DNA of 64,000 bases from Candidatus Latescibacterota bacterium (GTDB lineage: Bacteria; Latescibacterota; UBA2968; UBA8231): NCBI GenBank assembly GCA_965261395.1, contig OZ253462.1, forward strand, positions 5,536,001 through 5,600,000, given 5' to 3'. Below the pieces are notes generated by a model, which saw only the letters and a list, made by a program, of their open reading frames with translations, was not told the DNA's origin and searched no databases. Shown piece after piece: positions 55,686 through 62,777 of this stretch (the stretch's first letter is position 1; each line of letters opens with the position of its first letter). A program made the position numbers and the translations under genes.

Positions 55686-55739
55686 GTTTGCGGAGTATGG
55701 TAAAACTCTGATCGGTTCATTACCTATTTTTTAGCAGCA

Positions 55740-57401
55740 CTAGTTATCGTTGCGGGCCAAGTCGTCCCTAACTGCTTCTATTTTTTCCCGCAACTTGGCT
55801 AGAGCTTCAACGATATCTGGCCTTCTGCGAACCGGTCGTTCAAGCTCTTTCTGCCATTGCTCAAACTGCCGGAGGATGGTGTCGAAATGTCCCGAATTGC
55901 GCTTCAATACTTCATCTATAACCGTCAGCGTCGCACCCTTGCGGCTCGCATTAAGGCAGCAAACGGTCAGCATAAGGTCATCGCCTCCTAGGAGGTCGAG
56001 ATCCTGAGCGAGGCGTTCACTGTAGCCGGCATCGTGCGCCACGTTAGGTTCGGATGTATCTCCCTGTAAGACCGAATCGTCGAACACCATTGGATGCCGG
56101 GCGAATAACCGTCCGATGTGCGTCTCTATGCGCTCCGCCAAATGTGTCAACGATATTGTCAGCCAGCATTCCCGGGCTCCGTCGAACAATTCACGCCACA
56201 ATACTTTCGCTTTATCCGGTCGGCCATGCGATGGCGAAAGCAGCCAGTCGATACCCGATATTCCGATAGCTAGGAGGAATAAGGAAGGAGCAAGTGCGTC
56301 AGCATCATCCGTTTGGTTCCAGTGCTGGGCACGGCGTCGTTGCTCAATCAGCCGATTCCAGGATTGCCGCCATCGTTCGGCGGGTTCCTCTACATGCGCT
56401 AGCAGGTAACCGCAGCAGTTCACTGGCAGGTCACTGGTGCCGGAGTTCAGAAGGGATTCGACTTCGAAGGCTGGATCTCGCGACGCTAGTAAGGCATCGA
56501 GATAGTCAAGGAGCTTCTGCCCATCCTCGGTGGATGCATTGCCGATCATATGATCCATCAAAGCCATCATGGAAAGTGCTCCAAGGCGAGGCGGAGTTTT
56601 CTCATCGTCACATAACTCGGACCGCGCTGGCGCAAGTTCGCCAACGGCTGGAATCTCTGGAAAATCCACCAAGGCAGCGATTGTTCCGGCGGTAAGGCCC
56701 GCCTTGTAAAGACCGAGAGTAATCCATTCGATCAGATCATCCTGCCAGAGATATTCATGAGCCCGATCTCCAGCACGATCGCGACGCGCACGATCCAGAC
56801 GTTCGTCCTCGACTTTCATGAGCAGCCACTGAGGGCCGAGGAATTTGCCGTCCGGTCGGGCCATGACGACACGGCCAAGTTCTTCAAACCATGACGCAAA
56901 GATTTTCTTCATCTCCTCCCGGACTTCTGAGTCGTCATCGTCGAAGTTTTTCTCTTGATGCAATTCCTGCCATCGATCACGGCAATGCTCCTCGGCACTT
57001 TTCAGCACGAGTAAGGCCAACAAGCGGCCATTCCAAGATTGACCGTTCTCACTGCATCTCGGTGCTGCCTCCAGAGTGGCCGCGATCTCGTCACGATCAT
57101 GCAGGATCGTGTTGTGCCTGAGAACTTGGCGTATGGGATGTGGGAAATCGAAACGGTCTAATCGACCTAGGATAGCAGCCTTGTCTGTCGGTAGAAAGCC
57201 TGGGAGAAAGTCTAGTACATCATAATGGACTGGAAACGGATCTCCTTGAGCTTGCCACAACTCATTGATCGACGGACTCGAACGCCATGCCTCAACAGAC
57301 GCATTGAAGGCATCTCGGTCCCCCGCATAGGTCCCGATCCCCGGATTGGCATTAATGTCCCTGATCTTAGCCTCCAGATCCGATAGTATTGAATCACGCA
57401 T
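55740..57401 (-). CDS. Hypothetical protein (553 aa, probably helical), gene 3 of the accessory operon
   Basis: ATG at 57401 overlaps the stop of gene 2 (ATGCGTGA); Leu/Trp/Glu/Arg-rich; no motif recognised. Confidence 0.75.
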   Translation of the reverse strand: MRDSILSDLEAKIRDINANPGIGTYAGDRDAFNASVEAWRSSPSINELWQAQGDPFPVHYDVLDFLPGFLPTDKAAILGRLDRFDFPHPIRQVLRHNTILHDRDEIAATLEAAPRCSENGQSWNGRLLALLVLKSAEEHCRDRWQELHQEKNFDDDDSEVREEMKKIFASWFEELGRVVMARPDGKFLGPQWLLMKVEDERLDRARRDRAGDRAHEYLWQDDLIEWITLGLYKAGLTAGTIAALVDFPEIPAVGELAPARSELCDDEKTPPRLGALSMMALMDHMIGNASTEDGQKLLDYLDALLASRDPAFEVESLLNSGTSDLPVNCCGYLLAHVEEPAERWRQSWNRLIEQRRRAQHWNQTDDADALAPSLFLLAIGISGIDWLLSPSHGRPDKAKVLWRELFDGARECWLTISLTHLAERIETHIGRLFARHPMVFDDSVLQGDTSEPNVAHDAGYSERLAQDLDLLGGDDLMLTVCCLNASRKGATLTVIDEVLKRNSGHFDTILRQFEQWQKELERPVRRRPDIVEALAKLREKIEAVRDDLARNDN

Positions 57402-58032
57402 GACATGATCTCCAACATTCATCGAAAAACTTCATCGCCTTTGTTCTAGTTACGGACCACGGTCCGCTCGCAGCGGTCAATCCCGGATGCCCTCCGCCGA
57501 CAGTTGAACCGAAATGCCAGAGGCCTCCGTCAACGATGGCGAAGCGATCGTGCAGAAACGGGAAAATGTGTTTGTCGAGGGTCGCCCTCCACAGAACCTC
57601 CATCTGAGGGCGATTTCGGTACAGGTTGCAATACTGCGTAAGCTCTTTTCTCTTTCGTTCCCTCTCCTTCCTCTCGATGTCGCCTCGACCAGTAAGCAGG
57701 CGCACGTCGCTTGCCTGACTGTTCGATATTGCGTCTTCTATGGCATGGAAGCCAACTATGTCAAAATGCAGATCTAGCACCAGAATACAAACTTCCGCTT
57801 TCATCACCGCCTCTTCGAATTCAACCAATTTAAGAACCGTGCCGTTCCTAGGTGCCTCATATCGTTCGTGGACATCCTGCCTGTTAGGGAAAAAGGGGGT
57901 GTCTTGATTTTCGATGCCCTTCCCATATTTGATCGATGGCCATAACAGTTGCGGCTTAACCGATGGCTCAGGAAGCTCCGGCACCAGAAATTCATCATGG
58001 ACATCCGTGGGCGGTCGTAGTATAGCGCTCAT
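57394..58032 (-). CDS. Stand-alone PLD-like domain protein (HDRF variant), gene 2 of the accessory operon
   Basis: 'ILVLDLHF...DVRLLT...FLHDRFAIVDGGLWHFGST'; ATGA overlap with gene 1. Confidence 0.7.
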   Translation of the reverse strand: MSAILRPPTDVHDEFLVPELPEPSVKPQLLWPSIKYGKGIENQDTPFFPNRQDVHERYEAPRNGTVLKLVEFEEAVMKAEVCILVLDLHFDIVGFHAIEDAISNSQASDVRLLTGRGDIERKERERKRKELTQYCNLYRNRPQMEVLWRATLDKHIFPFLHDRFAIVDGGLWHFGSTVGGGHPGLTAASGPWSVTRTKAMKFFDECWRSCHA

Positions 58033-59605
58033 CGGTAGCGGATAAATCCCATCAGACGGTTAACCCATACTCGGAGAGTCTTTTTCCAGGATGCCTCCGG
58101 TACCGGTCGATTGGATAACCAGTCGGAAAGGGAGGGTGCATCGCCCCAGAAGGCTTCGAGGCACACGATAACCGGTTCTGGATCGGGCAGCCTGACGATC
58201 ATTCCTGCGCGTTCGCCTATCGTGTGTAGGGAGTTCCCGGAAAACCAAACGGTCCCGTCAACAACCAAGAATCGGTCATGCACAGGAGGCGGGTCGCCTG
58301 TGAGGATGCGAACCTCTGGCTTTGTAGGATAGGACTCAAAGGTGCGGTCAAGGATAGCTAACAGTTGAGATCCAGAGTTGGCGTCAATAGCCAAGGTCGA
58401 AGTCAGAATCCGCAAATCTATGTCAGGCCGGGAAACTGCATGACCAAAGGCGAGCAGTTCTCGGCCGGCGAAATAAGGATCGACGATGAGAACCGTGTCT
58501 CGAGCACTACCTATTTTCTGTCGTATATATTGCGCTGCCTCGCTTGGTACATTGTGAAACCATTGCTGGTCGTAGTCTTTCGCAGCCTGACGGCGTGCCC
58601 GCTGATTCTCCGCCTCGGTAAGCCGCGAGACGATGTCAGCATCCTCCAATGCGTCGCCGATGGTTATCTTCCTTTCCTCTTCAAATTCATCCGCTTTGTA
58701 CTTGTACCCGGGCCGCTTGCGACCATCAACAGGGACATGAACCATCTTTTCGCGTCGGTGCAATTCCATTGTCATATGAATGGCCCTAAGGACTGGCTGA
58801 GGTTCGTGCCAGACCAGCAGGCCATATTTGGGATGCGTGATCGACCTCCCTTCCTTGTAGACTTTAGCCAAAAAGTCGAGAACCGCGATCGCATCATTAC
58901 CAAACTTGTGGATAAGCGTCATCCGTCCACGCAGACGTTCATTGACAATCTCCAAACGCAATCCGTCGAGGCATTGACCTTGTCGGGCCACGAGTTTATA
59001 TGCCACGGTTTCGGCCGCACCCTTCCTTGCCTGCTCAAAGTGGGATTTCTCGACTGACCGGAACAAGGGATTCGGAGCGACTAGACATATTGCGCCTTGA
59101 TAATCATAATATGCCTCGACGATATCGAAATTGAGCCACTCCTCCAACTTTGTCCGGTTTTTGTCCATTCCGATAATCGCGCTGACCTCTGGAGATAGGA
59201 CATCTTTCGGGAACAAGAAATGAGTGCGCGAATCCTGCATCCAGTCAGGTGCGAAAGCTAATTCGTTCGACGTGACAAAGTGAGGCCATGGTGGTTCCGG
59301 CTCGAACGGGCCACCTTCCAACTTCGCACCATCTCCCGATGTTGAGTGATTCGGATCGAGTGGAAGAACGATGTTGCCGTCGGCCATCTTCCGGTACCAG
59401 TCGATTGCATCCTCGACAGGCAGGACGAAACGTCGATAGTAGAGATATTTGCGGCCTTTGTTCCCGACGCGAAAGCCTTTCGGTGGGCAGCCTATGGCGT
59501 CGGGAAACTCATTCGGTCGCAATTCAACCATGCCGAACAGCAAATACCGAACTTGATCATCGCGGAACCAAGCAAGATGTATGATTGCCTGACGATATCC
59601 AGTGA
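58029..59605 (-). CDS. Large protein with C-terminal PLD-like domain (reminiscent of VPA1262-family proteins), gene 1; native start (60545) cut off by the IS
   Basis: 'VLIVDPYF...LRILTS...VHDRFLVVDGTVWFSGNSL'; removing the IS restores MDLTGYRQAIIHLAWF. The family name is from memory and unverified. Confidence 0.7.
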
Positions 59606-60535
59606 GAAGCCGTCTGAAAACCCTCTGATGTAGCCGAATTTGAAAGGGCGTACTCATCGAGCCATATTCAGGTTTCACCACAAAATCTGAACAGAAAGGC
59701 TTGTATAATGAGTACGCCGCGTAGGCAATATGCCACCGATCTAACCGATGGACAATGGCAGCGGATCGAACCGTTGCTGCCCGCGCCGCGCTGGCGGCTT
59801 CACGGTCCGGGTCGGCCGCCGCGGGATCGACGCCAAATCGTCAACGGCCTTTTATATTTGAACAAGACGGGGTGTCCTTGGGCTTTGTTGCCTGCTTGTT
59901 TTGGGCCGTGGAAAACGGGGTATGATTACTTTCGTCGCTGGAGCCTGCAAGGGGTCTGGCCGCCGGTGTTGGATCGGTTGACCAAGCGGGAACGCCGCCA
60001 GAGCGGCCGGGCGGCGATGCCGTCGGCTGGCTGCGTCGATAGTCAGACGATTAAGACCGCAACGCATGGTAAAACAACCGGGTATGACGCCGGTAAAAAG
60101 ATCAAAGGCCGCAAACGGCATTTGTTGGTGGACACGTCGGGTTTGCTTCGACAGGTGGTGGTCACCGCCGCCGATGTCGATGATCGAGAGGGTTTGAAGC
60201 AGGTGTTGACCCGCTTGAAGGCCGCCGGAGTGGCTCGGTTACGCAAGCTGTGGGTTGATGGCGGCTACCAAGGCGAGGCCATCCGAACGTGGGTGGCCAA
60301 CCAAAAAAAGACGCACAAAATAGACTTGGAAGTCGTCGCCAAACAAGGCTCCGGATTTACCCTAGTTAAACGCCGGTGGGTCGTCGAGCGCACCTTGGCG
60401 TGGTTGATGAATTTTCGCCGACATGCGAGAGATTATGAGGTCTTGACCCGCCATAGTGAAGCCTTGATCCAGATTGCCATGATCCACTTGCTACTTAAAC
60501 GAATCAAATGAAAATTAGAGTTTTCAGACGGCTTC
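59606..60535 (+). mobile_element. IS5-family insertion sequence (IS1031-like), 930 bp
   Basis: Terminal inverted repeats GAAGCCGTCTGAAAAC (59606-59621) and GTTTTCAGACGGCTTC (60520-60535); flanked by TGA and TTA (TNA-type target). Confidence 0.9.
59708..60511 (+). CDS. IS5-family DDE transposase, single intact ORF
   Basis: 'YATDLTDGQW', 'VDSQ', 'GYDAGKKIKGRKRH', 'VDGGY' and 'RWVVERT' motifs. Confidence 0.95.
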   Translation: MSTPRRQYATDLTDGQWQRIEPLLPAPRWRLHGPGRPPRDRRQIVNGLLYLNKTGCPWALLPACFGPWKTGYDYFRRWSLQGVWPPVLDRLTKRERRQSGRAAMPSAGCVDSQTIKTATHGKTTGYDAGKKIKGRKRHLLVDTSGLLRQVVVTAADVDDREGLKQVLTRLKAAGVARLRKLWVDGGYQGEAIRTWVANQKKTHKIDLEVVAKQGSGFTLVKRRWVVERTLAWLMNFRRHARDYEVLTRHSEALIQIAMIHLLLKRIK

Positions 60536-60585
60536 TTAGATCCATGACCGTCTCCTCGCGGATTTGTATCTAAAAATTCAGTCTT

Positions 60586-62172
60586 TCACCGGACCAGCAT
60601 CAACCGGCGCGTCCGCATTTCCCCGCCGACCTTCAGCACGGCCCAATACGCCCCGCTAGCCGCGCGCTCACCGCTCCAATGCGCCAAGTGCTTCCCGGCC
60701 TTGAGCCGCTCCTCCATCAAAAGGGCCATGCGCTGGCCCAAGGCATTGTATATCGCCAGCTCGACGTCCGCTTCCCTTGCCAAGTGAAAGGGCAGGTTCA
60801 CCGCGCTGTTGGCCGGGTTCGGATAAGCCGGCTCCAAGTTGCTGGCCCCGGCTCGCTCCTCTGTCTGCATGGCTACGACTGTAGGCGTAACATACCGGGC
60901 CGCGAGGGCAAAATTCCCACCCGCCGACGAGGCTCTGCCGACGATGACCGCCGCGCTATCTACGTCCGCAGCCTGCACCTGCCCTGCGTTGTCCGCGCGA
61001 AGTTCCATCGCGATCAGCTCGCCGCGCTGGCCGCGCATGGCGTACACCCACACGGCATAGTCCCCCTCGGCCGCGCCGGCGAAATCAACGGCTACATCGC
61101 CCTCAGAGCGAATGACCACATTGGCCGCGCCCCATTGGCTGCCAACCTCACCGGCCAGTTCCGCGAAGGGCACCTCGGGTGCGGCAACCGCAGCGGCGCG
61201 GCGGCCGCGCAGAGCCTCGTACCCAGCCGCGTAGTTGGCCGCGATCCACAAACGCCACGCACCCGCGTAGTTCTCGACCCAGCTTTGGTTCTTAAAGGCG
61301 TCGTCAATGCCCAAAATGCCGTTGCGCGGCTCGGCGACGATTTGGCGAATCAGCCCCGGACCATAGTGCTCGGCTAAAAAAGAGGCGAACAGATAGGTCT
61401 TGCCGTAGCTCGCCGAATTAGACACCCAGTGCGTTAGATTGATGCTGGGATCCGCGAGAAAACTCGGCACCATGCTCGGGTCGGCCTCGGGGAAACCGAC
61501 TAGCTCCTCGGCGTACCCAGAAAGTCCCTCGTCGATCCATTCCTCCTCGTCGGAATCGCGGCCCCAATGGATGAGGTGCTGAAATTCGTGCGCTAAGGTC
61601 GCGTGGGCGAGGTAGGCGCTGAAGGCCAGCTTGCTCGCGTCGAGATAGACCGTATCGCGCCGCAGTTCGGGCAGCAGTACTTCATACACATTACCGTCAA
61701 AATAGCCGACTATGTTCTCGCCTGGCAGGTCCAAAATCAGAATGAAGATGCGGGGATCGCCGTCCTCATCGGCAGGCTCGCCAAAAGCATCGACCGCTAT
61801 TTCAAATACTCCGCGCTCGGGATCAGTCGGAGTCGCCGCGTCGAAAAGCGCGCCCAGCTTATCCACATCCGGCTGGGCCGCGATAATGTCCCACTGGCTT
61901 TCCTCGACGAAGATATAGCAGTGCGTTCCCTTGTAGCGGCAGGTAGCGAACTTGAGCACAGGTTCGAGCGGCGCGTAAAAGGCGAGCTGAGTCCCCACTT
62001 CAATGGGGCCTAGCTCTTGACTTGCGCCGACTGCCTTGACGGCTGGCGCAGGGAAAGACGCGCGGTTCTGCTCAAGCCAGCGAGTCCCGCATATCCGCTC
62101 TTCGGCTGCGACTGCCAGCGGCAGCGAGAGCATCCACGCGGTTAAGGCAACCCGCGGAAAAAAGCAGGCCAT
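60586..62172 (-). CDS. Secreted HEXXH zinc metallopeptidase with a C-terminal FlgD-Ig/T9SS type-A-like domain
   Basis: Start re-set by TGATG coupling; signal peptide; 'CGT' propeptide; 'HEFQH...WIDEG'; 'YPNPAN...LAIYNALGQ...SGAYW'. Confidence 0.8.
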   Translation of the reverse strand: MACFFPRVALTAWMLSLPLAVAAEERICGTRWLEQNRASFPAPAVKAVGASQELGPIEVGTQLAFYAPLEPVLKFATCRYKGTHCYIFVEESQWDIIAAQPDVDKLGALFDAATPTDPERGVFEIAVDAFGEPADEDGDPRIFILILDLPGENIVGYFDGNVYEVLLPELRRDTVYLDASKLAFSAYLAHATLAHEFQHLIHWGRDSDEEEWIDEGLSGYAEELVGFPEADPSMVPSFLADPSINLTHWVSNSASYGKTYLFASFLAEHYGPGLIRQIVAEPRNGILGIDDAFKNQSWVENYAGAWRLWIAANYAAGYEALRGRRAAAVAAPEVPFAELAGEVGSQWGAANVVIRSEGDVAVDFAGAAEGDYAVWVYAMRGQRGELIAMELRADNAGQVQAADVDSAAVIVGRASSAGGNFALAARYVTPTVVAMQTEERAGASNLEPAYPNPANSAVNLPFHLAREADVELAIYNALGQRMALLMEERLKAGKHLAHWSGERAASGAYWAVLKVGGEMRTRRLMLVR

Positions 62173-62777
62173 CAGTAGAAATGCCGCACCAAGAAGAACG
62201 CCGCTCCCGCAGGCCCCACCGCCACCTTGGGCGCGAAGCCGGTCTGAGCTTGATCCGCGCGAGCCACCCGCGCCGCATGGATGGCGGACACGAGGTGATT
62301 GACGACCACCAATCCCGTCATATAGAGCGCCTGCCGTTGCGTGTGCTGGCTTGCATTGCGCAATTCGCGGTAGCGCTGGCGCGACTCGTCGCGATCCCAT
62401 TCCCAGAAGAAGTCCGCGTCCACAGGATAGAGCTCGGCGTCAGGGCCGTCCTTGTAGCGGGCGAACTGGTTGTGCTCCAGCCGGCTCGCATAAAACCCCA
62501 AGTCGTCGAAATAGGCGCGCCCCTTGCCCTCGGGCCGCGCACCCGCTCGTTCCGCCGCATGCGCCTGGTACTGATCGCGGCGCACTTGGCCCAACCACTC
62601 AAAGCCATAATAGCCCCCCCAAAGCGCTAACTCAGCGGCCAAAAAGCTACCGCCGCCGCCTCGGGCGTATTTCTGCCCCCAACCGGGTACCAGCAAGGAG
62701 CGCCAAAACGCCCCTTGGGACTTCCCGGCCTCAGCCACGCCGGGCAGCAGCAAAACCAACGCAATCCATCGCCACAT
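62172..62777 (-). CDS. Exported/membrane hypothetical protein (DUF5683-like), paralog 2
   Basis: 'AFWRSLLVPGWGQ.Y' and 'NHLVSAIHA' motifs; start re-set to MWRWIAL. Confidence 0.65.
   Translation of the reverse strand: MWRWIALVLLLPGVAEAGKSQGAFWRSLLVPGWGQKYARGGGGSFLAAELALWGGYYGFEWLGQVRRDQYQAHAAERAGARPEGKGRAYFDDLGFYASRLEHNQFARYKDGPDAELYPVDADFFWEWDRDESRQRYRELRNASQHTQRQALYMTGLVVVNHLVSAIHAARVARADQAQTGFAPKVAVGPAGAAFFLVRHFY

What the first reader, a model, noticed from the sequence alone, without database searches (positions are those of the whole stretch)
55740..60557. Candidate undescribed defence system: three-gene island with two PLD-like (HDRF) proteins and a large orphan protein
Seen: three minus-strand ORFs with overlapping stop/start codons (ATGA at 58029-58032, ATGCGTGA at 57394-57401). 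They are visibly less GC-rich than the flanks, lie between folB-folK-panC plus a propeller gene and a secreted peptidase operon, and carry an IS. Gene 1 ends in a PLD-like domain (DPYF...VHDRFLVVDG...GNSL), gene 2 is a stand-alone PLD-like domain (DLHF...LHDRFAIVDG...GST), and gene 3 has no recognisable motif. None has a signal peptide. Known: PLD-superfamily nucleases serve in restriction and anti-phage systems such as BfiI and DISARM DrmC. Inference: a horizontally acquired nuclease/effector module in which the gene 1 N-terminus or gene 3 acts as sensor or scaffold. It matches no named system I recognise.
Basis: partly seen in the sequence, partly recalled or inferred. Interest (0 to 1): 0.85.

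Follow-up and report, generated by a model that had tools for sequence, protein, structure and literature searches.

The report
IS-hit three-gene relative of Juno defence
This is a horizontally acquired three-gene cassette whose first gene belongs to the family of the recently described Juno anti-phage protein, here split into separate proteins and with that first gene cut off from its start codon by a recent insertion sequence.

Summary
The three overlapping minus-strand ORFs, the GC dip, both HDRF motifs and the IS are real. The reading needs three corrections.

(1) Gene 1 is not unnamed. It matches NCBIfam VPA1262_N_dom (2e-60). Full-length relatives of that family were named "Juno" and shown to block phages in an August 2026 preprint.

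(2) Gene 3 is not an orphan. It has 225 homologues, and it sits beside a gene 1 homologue in all 6 loci fetched by searching with gene 3 and in 4 of the 10 loci fetched by searching with gene 1. It folds as an all-alpha solenoid. Here it lacks about 165 N-terminal residues found in most relatives.

(3) The 932-bp IS5 element is not merely nearby. It sits after codon 3 of gene 1, so 25 codons of the called ORF are IS sequence. An IS-free allele exists in another study's reads.

Gene 2 is a free-standing copy of gene 1's PLD-fold module. It is intact in 7 of 16 related loci. The Lys of the HKD motif is Arg throughout the family.

Relatives lie between Lamassu/Gabija, Dsr1 and type IIG systems, whereas matched control windows do not.

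Verdict: a split, multi-gene variant of a just-described defence family, probably impaired in this genome. I found no printed description of the three-gene form.

The parts
55688..60584 (-). Whole cassette plus IS, bounded by the empty-site joint. It lies between the 3' ends of the convergent propeller gene (ends 55685) and peptidase gene (stop at 60586).
   Evidence: read laying joint 55687->60585 in 3 runs. The aligned sides are short (22, 28 and 66 nt), so this is a weak hint. The same site is occupied in the syntenic locus L002. GC dip.
58029..59604 (-). Gene 1, native body (about 525 codons). It has beta-rich N-terminal domains and a C-terminal PLD-fold module, and belongs to the VPA1262 N-domain family.
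   Evidence: NF040700 2e-60, 204.9 bits, cut-off 80. AlphaFold pLDDT 93. Foldseek hits: NucT, Zucchini, TrmBL2, FAM83. 727 representative clusters.
59605..59681 (-). IS-derived 5' extension of the gene 1 ORF: 25 codons, with possible starts at GTG 59681 and ATG 59657. It is not part of the native gene.
   Evidence: blastn against L002 and junction reading.
60537..60545 (-). Stranded native start of gene 1 (ATG GAT CT+A, reading M-D-L), now separated from the gene body by the IS.
   Evidence: The L002 native N-terminus reads M-D-F-T-E-Y-R-Q.
59605..60536 (+). IS5-family insertion sequence, 932 bp, with 20-nt terminal inverted repeats. Its transposase ORF is 59708-60511.
   Evidence: IRs. NF033580 3.7e-70. 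10 copies at 100% identity and 10 at 87% in the genome. An IS-free allele is seen in run X6, joint 59604->60538.
58137..58568 (-). PLD-fold module of gene 1, with DPYF at 58470-58481 and HDRF at 58269-58280.
   Evidence: Pfam PLDc_2 E 2.4e-4, below its cut-off. PADLOC PDC-S05, partial match, 2.5e-8. Near-invariant DPYF...HDRF..D..W..G.S in 67 sequences. Fold. Coordinates.
57394..58032 (-). Gene 2: a 212-aa free-standing copy of the PLD-fold module (HDRF at 57541-57552), with a conserved N-terminal segment of about 80 aa of unknown role. Its start overlaps the gene 1 stop (ATGA).
   Evidence: 265 homologues. Invariant HDRF..D...WHFG in 42 sequences. Homologues match NF040700 positions 334-444 at 1.2e-5 and 3.8e-4. 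My gene 2 HMM hits N-domain proteins at 1e-7 to 1e-11.
55740..57401 (-). Gene 3: a 553-aa all-alpha solenoid-like protein, here in a short form lacking the roughly 165-aa N-terminal extension of most relatives. Its start overlaps the gene 2 stop (ATGCGTGA).
   Evidence: 225 homologues. Comparison with P0007. AlphaFold pLDDT 82.8, pTM 0.83, all helices. Only generic ARM/HEAT/importin fold hits, E>=0.015.

Best explanation
The locus is a horizontally acquired, translationally coupled cassette. It is a multi-gene relative of the single-protein Juno (VPA1262-family) anti-phage system.

Gene 1 carries the family's conserved N-terminal unit: beta-sandwich-rich domains followed by a PLD-fold module. 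In that module the HKD motif reads H-x-R-x4-D across the whole family. Gene 2 is a free-standing paralogue of that PLD-fold module. Gene 3 is an alpha-solenoid protein that occupies the position taken by an unrelated-in-sequence C-terminal half in fused Juno.

Proposed mechanism (inferred, not shown). PLD-fold enzymes build one active site from two HKD-type modules. So gene 1 would act as a dimer, either with itself or with gene 2, to form a phosphodiesterase or nuclease effector. The variable large partner (gene 3, the other partner families, or Juno's own C-terminal half) would act as the sensor or scaffold that gates the effector on infection.

In this genome the system is probably impaired. 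A recently active IS5 element separates gene 1 from its start codon and upstream signals. Gene 3 is a shortened form, but that form is inherited and still open in a clade of relatives.
For: Family. Gene 1 matches NF040700 at 2e-60. A full-length 1027-aa Juno-type protein from G180 matches both NF040699 (520 bits) and NF040700 (269 bits), and carries the same HDR[FY] motif.

Published function. [quoted passage not shown]

Operon conservation. I examined 16 related loci. A gene 3 homologue lies next to the N-domain gene in 10 of them: all 6 fetched with gene 3 as bait, plus L032, L033, L034 and L035 among the 10 fetched with gene 1 or NF040700 as bait. An intact gene 2 homologue lies between the two in 7 of 16 (L003, L004, L007, L032, L034, L028, L037). 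Stop and start codons overlap in the window and on the Burkholderia and Klebsiella plasmids. As a proxy, 39 of 119 listed gene 3 rows share their longest-contig length with a listed gene 2 row; both lists were cut at 120 rows.

Constraint. dN/dS between the window and L002 is 0.28 for gene 1 and 0.35 for the gene 3 core, against 0.05-0.25 for the flanking genes, with similar dS. The motifs are near-invariant.

Fold. NucT, Zucchini, a phage NucT-like nuclease and poxvirus PLD-like proteins are the top hits.

Defence context. L028 has LmuA/LmuB upstream and GajA (8e-275) and GajB (8e-228) downstream. L029 has Dsr1 (5e-107) and PDC-S06 (8.5e-292). L030 has PDC-S58, a DRT reverse transcriptase and MzaA. 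L007 has a type IIG enzyme (1.8e-301). The 57 ORFs of four control windows 1 Mb away in the same genomes gave only type II methyltransferase models among the 25 rows shown, each matching one member.

Mobility. Low GC3 in the high-GC hosts. 7 plasmid records, 5 of them conjugative. 2 of 31 genomes of the genus carry it above the cut-off. An empty-site allele exists.

IS damage.. An IS-free allele exists in run X6.
Against: Only fused full-length Juno proteins were tested in the preprint. Gene 1 scores 15.3 bits on the full-length model, whose cut-off is 325.

Neither gene 2 nor gene 3 shows detectable sequence similarity to Juno's C-terminal half (hhalign probability 0.1-0.2%). That test was weak, because the Juno side held only 1-2 sequences. 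So "split Juno" is not shown, and a swapped partner is equally possible.

No PADLOC model matches gene 3, and none matches gene 2 beyond a stray 0.06.

Pfam PLDc_2 is below its gathering score for both proteins. The catalytic Lys is Arg. The closest folds include the non-catalytic PLD-like domains TrmB/TrmBL2 and FAM83.

The window, L002, L003 and L004 sit among housekeeping genes such as groEL, metG, tatD, tmk and panC.

Gene 2 or the gene 3 N-extension has been deleted in 4 of the 7 closest loci (window, L002, L005, L006). These parts may be dispensable, or the system may be decaying.

No minus-strand promoter-like site lies upstream of the hybrid gene 1 start.
Confidence: 0.62

Rival explanations
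1. The system is still functional in this genome. Gene 1 would be translated from a start inside the IS end (ATG 59657 or GTG 59681), either on read-through from the upstream peptidase operon or from an IS-borne outward promoter. This would give a protein that differs only by replacement of M-D-L with 17-25 IS-encoded residues.
For: The gene 1 frame stays open into the IS and offers ATG and GTG starts. Only 2-3 native residues are lost. Genes 2 and 3 are intact ORFs. The short gene 3 form is kept open in relatives that are 81-90% identical to the window's (9 of the 10 closest rows), and 7 of the 16 short-form rows share a contig length with a gene 2 row (read).
Against: The native ribosome-binding region and start are 932 bp away. 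The consensus scan finds no minus-strand promoter-like site near 59700-59800, though that scan is crude. The model's first beta-strand begins at residue 4, so an N-terminal extension abuts folded structure. All 10 identical IS copies point to a very recent insertion that selection has not yet tested.
Confidence: 0.25
2. The HxR PLD-fold modules are not enzymes. They would be binding modules, like the TrmB sugar-binding domain or the FAM83 scaffold domain. Genes 1 and 2 would then sense a ligand or a phage protein, and the killing or blocking activity would reside elsewhere, for instance in gene 3 or in a host factor.
For: TrmBL2/TrmB and FAM83 DUF1669 rank among the best structural matches. 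The canonical Lys is Arg in all family members aligned. In the G180 Juno protein the Asp of HxKx4D is Ser. Pfam PLDc_2 is sub-threshold.
Against: His, the following Asp, Arg, the +7 Asp and the downstream G.S are at least 90% conserved over 67 diverse gene 1 relatives, and invariant in 42 gene 2 relatives. Known pseudo-PLD domains have lost the His; that statement is general knowledge and was not tested here. The best single hits are nucleases: NucT, Zucchini and a phage NucT-like nuclease. Arg can bind phosphate as Lys does (inference).
Confidence: 0.25
3. The cassette is not an anti-phage system. It would be another accessory function of mobile elements, such as plasmid or island maintenance (addiction), exclusion of competing elements, or an intracellular toxin with its regulator.
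For: It occurs on large plasmids, 5 of 7 conjugative, next to recombinases and transposases. In several genomes there are no defence neighbours. No phage test exists for the split form.
Against: Fused family members were reported to protect against four coliphages. Defence systems flank the gene in 4 of the 5 loci from the unbiased sample that have enough flank, but only a methyltransferase-like protein turned up in the matched controls. None of the proteins matched a Pfam signal or secretion domain; this rests only on the Pfam scans, and no signal-peptide predictor was run.
Confidence: 0.12

Closest known systems
Juno / VPA1262 family protein (NCBIfam NF040699; bioRxiv 10.64898/2026.08.01.741415)
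   Same: It shares the N-terminal unit defined by NF040700, including the PLD-fold module with the HDR[FY] motif. It lies in defence islands and mobile elements. It is the only member of the wider family with a reported anti-phage phenotype.
   Different: Juno is one protein of about 1020-1030 aa. Here the N-domain unit is a separate protein of about 525 aa, followed by an extra PLD-fold paralogue (gene 2) and an alpha-solenoid protein (gene 3). Neither shows detectable sequence similarity to Juno's C-terminal half. Gene 1 fails the full-length model (15.3 bits against 325). The preprint's homologue search required 70% coverage of a full-length profile (methods passage), so stand-alone N-domain proteins would probably have been excluded; that is my inference. 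Its datasets and Fig. 7B were not visible to me.
Single-HKD PLD-family nucleases (Nuc/NucT, BfiI catalytic domain, Zucchini/PLD6)
   Same: Same fold (Foldseek: NucT 6ehi at 1.5e-6, Zucchini 4gem at 8e-5). One HKD-type motif per polypeptide, which in those enzymes requires dimerisation to form the active site; that requirement is general knowledge.
   Different: Lys is replaced by Arg throughout the family. Sequence similarity is below Pfam's threshold. The module is joined to about 340 residues of beta-rich domains, which gave only generic beta-sandwich, FN3 and GH2 matches. No activity has been shown.
PADLOC candidate PDC-S05
   Same: Gene 1 residues 381-498 match the C-terminal third of two PDC-S05 models (2.5e-8 and 7.7e-7). 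One PDC-S05 representative was reported to reduce plating of T7 and T5 about 1000-fold (bioRxiv 10.1101/2024.09.26.614923, passages only).
   Different: The match covers only about 105 of 285 model positions. PDC-S05 is a single protein of about 290 aa, described there as carrying a RhuM domain. There is no counterpart of the gene 1 N-terminal domains, of the gene 2 N-terminal segment, or of gene 3.
DISARM DrmC
   Same: A PLD-superfamily protein within a multi-gene defence system (general knowledge).
   Different: No DrmC model matched gene 1 or gene 2 at E<=1. No helicase, methylase or DUF1998 partners are present.

Membership tests
NCBIfam NF040700, VPA1262 family N-terminal domain-containing protein | Whole-protein score at or above the curated cut-off (80 bits), with near-full model coverage | tested here: met
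   Gene 1: 204.9 bits, E 2e-60, model positions 3-471 of 478. The same result came from the genome search.
NCBIfam NF040699, VPA1262 family protein (= Juno) | Whole-protein score at or above the curated cut-off (325 bits) | tested here: not met
   Gene 1 scores 15.3 bits, on positions 398-500 only. Genes 2 and 3 have no match. Positive control: the G180 protein scores 519.9 bits.
NCBIfam NF040699, VPA1262 family protein (= Juno) | A single polypeptide of about 1020 aa with the family's C-terminal half | tested here: not met
   The ORFs are separate. hhalign of the gene 3 family against Juno C-terminal sequences gave probability 0.1-0.2%. The Juno-side profile was shallow, with only 2 sequences.
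NCBIfam NF040699, VPA1262 family protein (= Juno) | Protection against phages when expressed | not testable with these tools
   Only published for two fused proteins.
PLD superfamily (Pfam PLDc_2, PF13091) | Score at or above Pfam's gathering threshold (27 bits) | tested here: not met
   Gene 1 scores 21.4 bits (E 2.4e-4) and gene 2 scores 11.6 bits (E 0.25). Gene 2 homologues score 15-18 bits.
PLD superfamily (Pfam PLDc_2, PF13091) | PLD alpha/beta fold | tested here: met
   Gene 1 model, pLDDT 93. Foldseek hits NucT, Zucchini, FAM83 and TrmBL2 at probability 1.0. Viral PLD-like and NucT-like proteins also hit. Gene 2 was not folded: it is assigned by its profile match to the same module.
PLD superfamily (Pfam PLDc_2, PF13091) | HxK(x)4D catalytic motif | tested here: not met
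   His and the +7 Asp are present, but Lys is Arg (H-D-R-F-x3-D) in gene 1, gene 2 and all relatives aligned. Whether HxR supports catalysis is unknown.
PADLOC PDC-S05 | Full-length match to the single-gene model | tested here: not met
   The match is partial: gene 1 residues 381-498 against model positions 169-273 of 285.
IS5 family insertion sequence | DDE transposase of the IS5 family, terminal inverted repeats, and multiple copies | tested here: met
   NF033580 scores 236 bits against a cut-off of 110. The IRs are 20 nt. 10 identical copies. A 3-bp TNA duplication flanks 6 of the 8 copies read.

The most novel reading that the evidence does not exclude
The VPA1262 N-domain unit, with its HxR variant of the PLD motif, is the conserved effector core of a large modular superfamily of immune systems: 727 clusters at 50% identity. 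Fused Juno is only one branch of it. In the commonest split form, a dedicated free-standing PLD paralogue (gene 2) pairs with gene 1 to build a composite HxR active site. Interchangeable large partners set which phages are sensed: the gene 3 solenoid, the 639-aa family, the roughly 480-aa family, or Juno's own C-terminal half. The recurrent deletions at the gene 2 / gene 3 N-extension junction would then be switches between regulatory states rather than decay.
Probability: 0.25. Interest if true: 0.72.

Novelty: new variant of a known kind. Interest (0 to 1): 0.55.

Why it matters
Juno was reported only in August 2026, as a single large protein, and the sections I read give no mechanism. This locus and its relatives show that Juno's conserved N-terminal unit also exists as a stand-alone protein in hundreds of clusters. 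That stand-alone protein is usually coupled to one or two separate partners.

This natural dissection into parts offers a direct experimental handle: a core with an HxR PLD-fold module, an optional second PLD-fold module, and a swappable large partner. One can ask which piece is the effector, which is the sensor, and whether the unusual HxR motif is catalytic.

It also flags proteins that current defence catalogues (PADLOC v2, Pfam, PHROGs) do not recognise: genes 2 and 3 and the other partner families. For this particular genome the finding is ordinary: an accessory cassette recently hit by an expanding IS.

Tried and rejected
Genes 2 and 3 as one split gene. Rejected. The extra roughly 165 residues of the long gene 3 homologues are unrelated to gene 2 (BLASTP best E 0.89).

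Gene 3 as Juno's C-terminal half. hhalign of A1 against the G180 protein, and of a widened gene 3 alignment against two Juno C-termini, the roughly 480-aa partners and the 639-aa partner, all gave probability below 3%. NCBIfam and Pfam scans of long gene 3 forms gave nothing meaningful. The word-based search with Juno residues 560-1027 found only one relative, so the Juno-side profile stayed shallow.

Complex prediction. Gene 1 residues 340-525 with gene 2 returned "no answer" (score 0.01). It is evidence neither for nor against binding.

Fold of gene 3. Foldseek against PDB gave only generic ARM, HEAT and importin solenoids at E>=0.015. The protein atlas gave no hit at 0.9 or above for gene 3 or for Juno's C-terminal half.

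Other searches. A profile of the gene 1 family against PDB sequences found nothing below E 0.3. PHROGs had no family for gene 1, gene 2, long gene 3 or Juno at E<=0.01. No direct or inverted repeats of 8 nt or more bound the cassette.

Expression. No RNA holder was listed for the locus.

Small joints. The other small joints (for example 57480->58171 in X7, side 24) have short sides at 88% likeness and were not interpreted.

Literature. Searches for "VPA1262" (4 papers), "PDC-S05" (5 papers) and "Juno" with "anti-phage defense" (4 papers) found no description of a multi-gene form. Supplementary datasets of the Juno and GMT papers were closed, and they may list homologues or architectures that I could not see.

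The fold libraries pdb_via_wide and pdb_via were not on the machine.

Full report
OBSERVATION. The three minus-strand ORFs exist as described: 58029-59681 (550 aa), 57394-58032 (212 aa) and 55740-57422 (560 aa). The stop/start overlaps are exact: ATGA at 58029-58032 and ATGCGTGA at 57394-57401. GC falls to 0.51-0.55 across the three genes, against 0.59-0.66 on both sides. Both HDRF motifs are in place, at 58269-58280 and 57541-57552. The neighbours are purD, folB, folK, panC and a beta-propeller gene on one side, and a peptidase with a sub-threshold type IX secretion sorting domain on the other.

THE IS IS INSIDE GENE 1. The IS is exactly 59605-60536, 932 bp, with 20-nt terminal inverted repeats. 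Its transposase is of the IS5 family (NF033580, 3.7e-70). The genome holds 10 full-length copies at 100% identity and 10 more at 87%.

L002 is a syntenic locus in a genome of the same genus. It is collinear with the window on both sides of the IS at about 86% identity: window 63862-60540 matches L002 2507-5828, and window 59605-58003 matches L002 5830-7455.

Reading the junction shows what happened. The native gene 1 begins ATG GAT CT at 60545-60538, and the body resumes at 59604. The L002 protein starts M-D-F-T-E-Y-R-Q. So the first 25 codons of the 550-aa ORF are IS sequence, and the real gene is cut off from its start codon and upstream region.

The consensus scan finds no minus-strand promoter-like site just upstream of the hybrid start. 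In contigs of an independent study (X6), one contig joins 59604 to 60538. That is an IS-free allele, though the aligned side is only 27 nt.

GENE 1. It matches NCBIfam NF040700, "VPA1262 family N-terminal domain-containing protein", at 204.9 bits (cut-off 80) over model positions 3-471 of 478. It scores only 15.3 bits on the full-length family model NF040699, whose cut-off is 325.

An exhaustive search found 727 representative clusters at E<=0.001, and 213 at E<=1e-30. Nearly all of the best 150 are stand-alone proteins of about 500-600 aa.

With a 67-sequence alignment the protein folds at pLDDT 93. Residues 1-320 are beta-rich, a helix follows, and residues 347-490 form an alpha/beta module. 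That module is a PLD fold. The top hits are H. pylori NucT (E 1.5e-6), TrmBL2/TrmB, FAM83 DUF1669 and Zucchini. Among viral models the hits are poxvirus PLD-like envelope proteins and a phage NucT-like nuclease. The N-terminal part gives only generic beta-sandwich, FN3 and GH2 matches.

The near-invariant signature is DPYF ... H-D-R-F-x3-D-x3-W-x2-G-x-S. This is the HKD motif with Arg in place of Lys. Pfam PLDc_2 is below threshold (E 2.4e-4). No solved structure is related by sequence.

WHAT IS KNOWN ABOUT THE FAMILY. "VPA1262" occurs in four papers in the library. One is a bioRxiv preprint of 3 August 2026 (10.64898/2026.08.01.741415). I read its section 12 and the passages that mention Juno. 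It renames the VPA1262 family Juno. [quoted passage not shown] Those sections give no mechanism.

Its homologue search demanded 70% coverage of a full-length profile. Stand-alone N-domain proteins were therefore probably not counted; that is my inference, and I could not see the datasets.

It scores 520 bits on NF040699 and 269 bits on NF040700, and carries the motif IHDRY.

GENE 2. It has 265 homologues, mostly 205-225 aa. HDRF..D...WHFG is invariant across 42 aligned sequences. Its relatives match only positions 334-444 of the NF040700 model (1.2e-5 and 3.8e-4). My gene 2 profile hits the N-domain proteins at 1e-7 to 1e-11. Gene 2 is therefore a free-standing paralogue of gene 1's PLD-fold module, with a conserved N-terminal segment of about 80 aa of unknown role.

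GENE 3. It is not an orphan: it has 225 homologues. Of the 119 listed rows other than the window's own, 101 are 702-734 aa, 2 are 636-642 aa and 16 are 610 aa or less.

The long forms carry about 165 extra N-terminal residues that are unrelated to gene 2. The window keeps the first three codons (M-R-D) and then continues in frame at about residue 171 of the long form.

The same short form is found, still open, in 9 of the 10 closest listed clusters (81-90% identity). So the deletion is inherited and tolerated. It is not a private lesion of this genome.

The protein folds as an all-alpha solenoid (pLDDT 82.8, pTM 0.83). Only generic ARM, HEAT and importin neighbours were found. It has no Pfam, NCBIfam, PADLOC or PHROG family.

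CO-OCCURRENCE. I examined 16 related loci:
- 6 were found with gene 3 as bait (L002-L007).
- 5 came from an unbiased NF040700 search of 401 genomes of another phylum. That search gave 6 hits, one of which was L007 again.
- 5 of the 7 plasmid records found with gene 1 were examined. H3 and H5 were not examined.

The architectures are as follows:
- N-domain gene, gene 2 homologue and gene 3 homologue: L003, L004, L007, L032, and L034 (Burkholderia plasmid).
- The same, but with a truncated gene 2: L033 (Azospirillum plasmid) and L005. L005 also has a short gene 3.
- N-domain gene and gene 3 without gene 2: L002, L006 and L035. In L002 and L006 the spacer still begins like gene 2. L035 (Methylorubrum) has an extra 260-aa gene.
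- N-domain gene, gene 2 homologue and an unrelated-in-sequence 639-aa protein: L028 and L037 (Klebsiella plasmid). The two 639-aa proteins are 85% identical.
- N-domain gene and a single other partner: L029 and L031, whose roughly 480-aa partners are related to each other at 3e-9, and L036, with a 594-aa partner weakly similar to a gene 3 homologue at 2e-4.
- Fused Juno: L030.

So the constant is the N-domain protein plus a large partner. Gene 2 is frequent but optional: it is intact in 7 of 16 loci.

The window and L002 are informative as a pair. They share the same chromosomal site, but the window has gene 2 where L002 has the gene 3 N-extension. Three other lineages have both. That implies two independent deletions at the same junction.

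SELECTION AND MOBILITY. Between the window and L002, dN/dS is 0.28 for gene 1 and 0.35 for the gene 3 core. Eight flanking genes give 0.05-0.25, with comparable dS. So the cassette was inherited along with its flanks and was under purifying, if somewhat relaxed, selection.

The system genes have lower GC3 (0.54-0.66) than their neighbours in the high-GC hosts. The contrast is strongest in L003, L004 and L006, where neighbours reach 0.7-0.93, and smaller in L002 and L007.

Only 2 of 31 genomes of the window's genus (G000 and G532) score above the family cut-off, and many of those lacking it are closed single contigs. In the phylum sample the figure is 3 of 168.

Contigs in three runs join 55687 to 60585. 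That is the site without the cassette. The aligned sides are 22, 28 and 66 nt, so this is a weak hint. No repeats of 8 nt or more bound the cassette.

DEFENCE CONTEXT. A PADLOC scan of 100 neighbouring ORFs from 11 loci gave strong hits, which I then assigned to loci:
- L028: LmuA (3e-39), LmuB (2e-113), GajA (8e-275) and GajB (8e-228).
- L029: Dsr1 (5e-107) and PDC-S06 (8.5e-292).
- L030, beside Juno: PDC-S58 (1e-30), a DRT reverse transcriptase (6.5e-54) and MzaA (5e-76).
- L007: a type IIG restriction-methylase (1.8e-301).

As a control I took four windows of the same size, 1 Mb away in the same four genomes (57 ORFs). The 25 rows shown were type II methyltransferase models (plus one mad2 and one orphan-methyltransferase row), each matching one member.

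By contrast the window, L002, L003 and L004 lie among housekeeping genes.

MECHANISM. This is inferred, not shown. Single-HKD PLD enzymes dimerise to form one active site; that is general knowledge about Nuc, BfiI and Zucchini. The strict conservation of H, D, R, the +7 D and G.S in both gene 1 and gene 2 argues for a working site. The K-to-R change and the structural resemblance to TrmB and FAM83 leave a non-catalytic role open.

I propose an effector dimer (gene 1 with itself, or with gene 2) gated by a variable large partner that acts as sensor. The one complex prediction I could run gave no answer (see Tried and rejected).

Whether gene 3 is the detached equivalent of Juno's C-terminal half could not be settled. 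Sequence profiles see nothing, but the Juno side held only two sequences.

VERDICT. The defence interpretation is reasonable, and it is strengthened by the Juno report and by the neighbourhoods. However, the system is a variant of a known kind, not categorically new, and this copy is probably impaired.

Noticed in passing
window 59605-60536, and G000:C1:6146728-6147659 (L008): Six of the eight IS copies read have matching 3-bp TNA target duplications. The copy in gene 1 has TGA/TTA, and the copy in L008 has the reciprocal TTA/TGA. That pattern would fit a past recombination between these two oppositely oriented copies. However, both flanks of the gene 1 copy are collinear with L002, which argues against a standing inversion.
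   Followed up: partly
window 59647-59657 and 59708-59718: An 11-nt perfect inverted repeat lies in the left end of the IS. Because of it, the transposase ORF (+ strand) and the outward-reading hybrid gene 1 ORF (- strand) both begin M-S-T-P. It may be a translational control hairpin of the IS.
   Followed up: no
whole genome G000: The IS family is expanding. There are 10 identical copies, 10 copies at 87% identity, and three more diverged or partial ones. Three of the identical copies lie within 17 kb of each other (2744513-2761323).
   Followed up: no
L044 (G542:C1:1755272-1755643): Another genome of the same genus lacks the cassette. It does have a 1655-aa open frame with a sub-threshold match (2.9e-11) to the PLD-fold part (positions 322-452) of the NF040700 model. 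This is a different, much larger protein carrying this kind of module.
   Followed up: no
L030 11692-12984 (-), next to the fused Juno gene: A 430-aa ORF immediately upstream of full-length Juno matches the PADLOC candidate PDC-S58 (1.3e-30), and at its C-terminus an ApeA-like model (1.3e-12). It may be an independent neighbour or a partner of Juno.
   Followed up: no
L035 11452-15411 (-), Methylorubrum plasmid pCMU01: A 1319-aa protein annotated as SIR2 family lies directly downstream of the N-domain gene, gene 3 homologue and 260-aa gene cassette. IS21 and IS5 elements lie on either side.
   Followed up: no
window 60586-62400 (-): The neighbouring 604-aa peptidase-like protein has a sub-threshold C-terminal type IX secretion sorting domain (Por_Secre_tail, E 3.5e-5) and a weak MA-clan peptidase match. 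In L002 its stop lies immediately before the gene 1 start, so the cassette may normally be co-transcribed with it.
   Followed up: partly
window 57480-58171: One contig of run X7 skips 690 nt (a multiple of three) spanning most of gene 2 and the end of gene 1. The aligned side is only 24 nt at 88% likeness, so this is uninterpreted. It might be another deletion variant at this junction.
   Followed up: no
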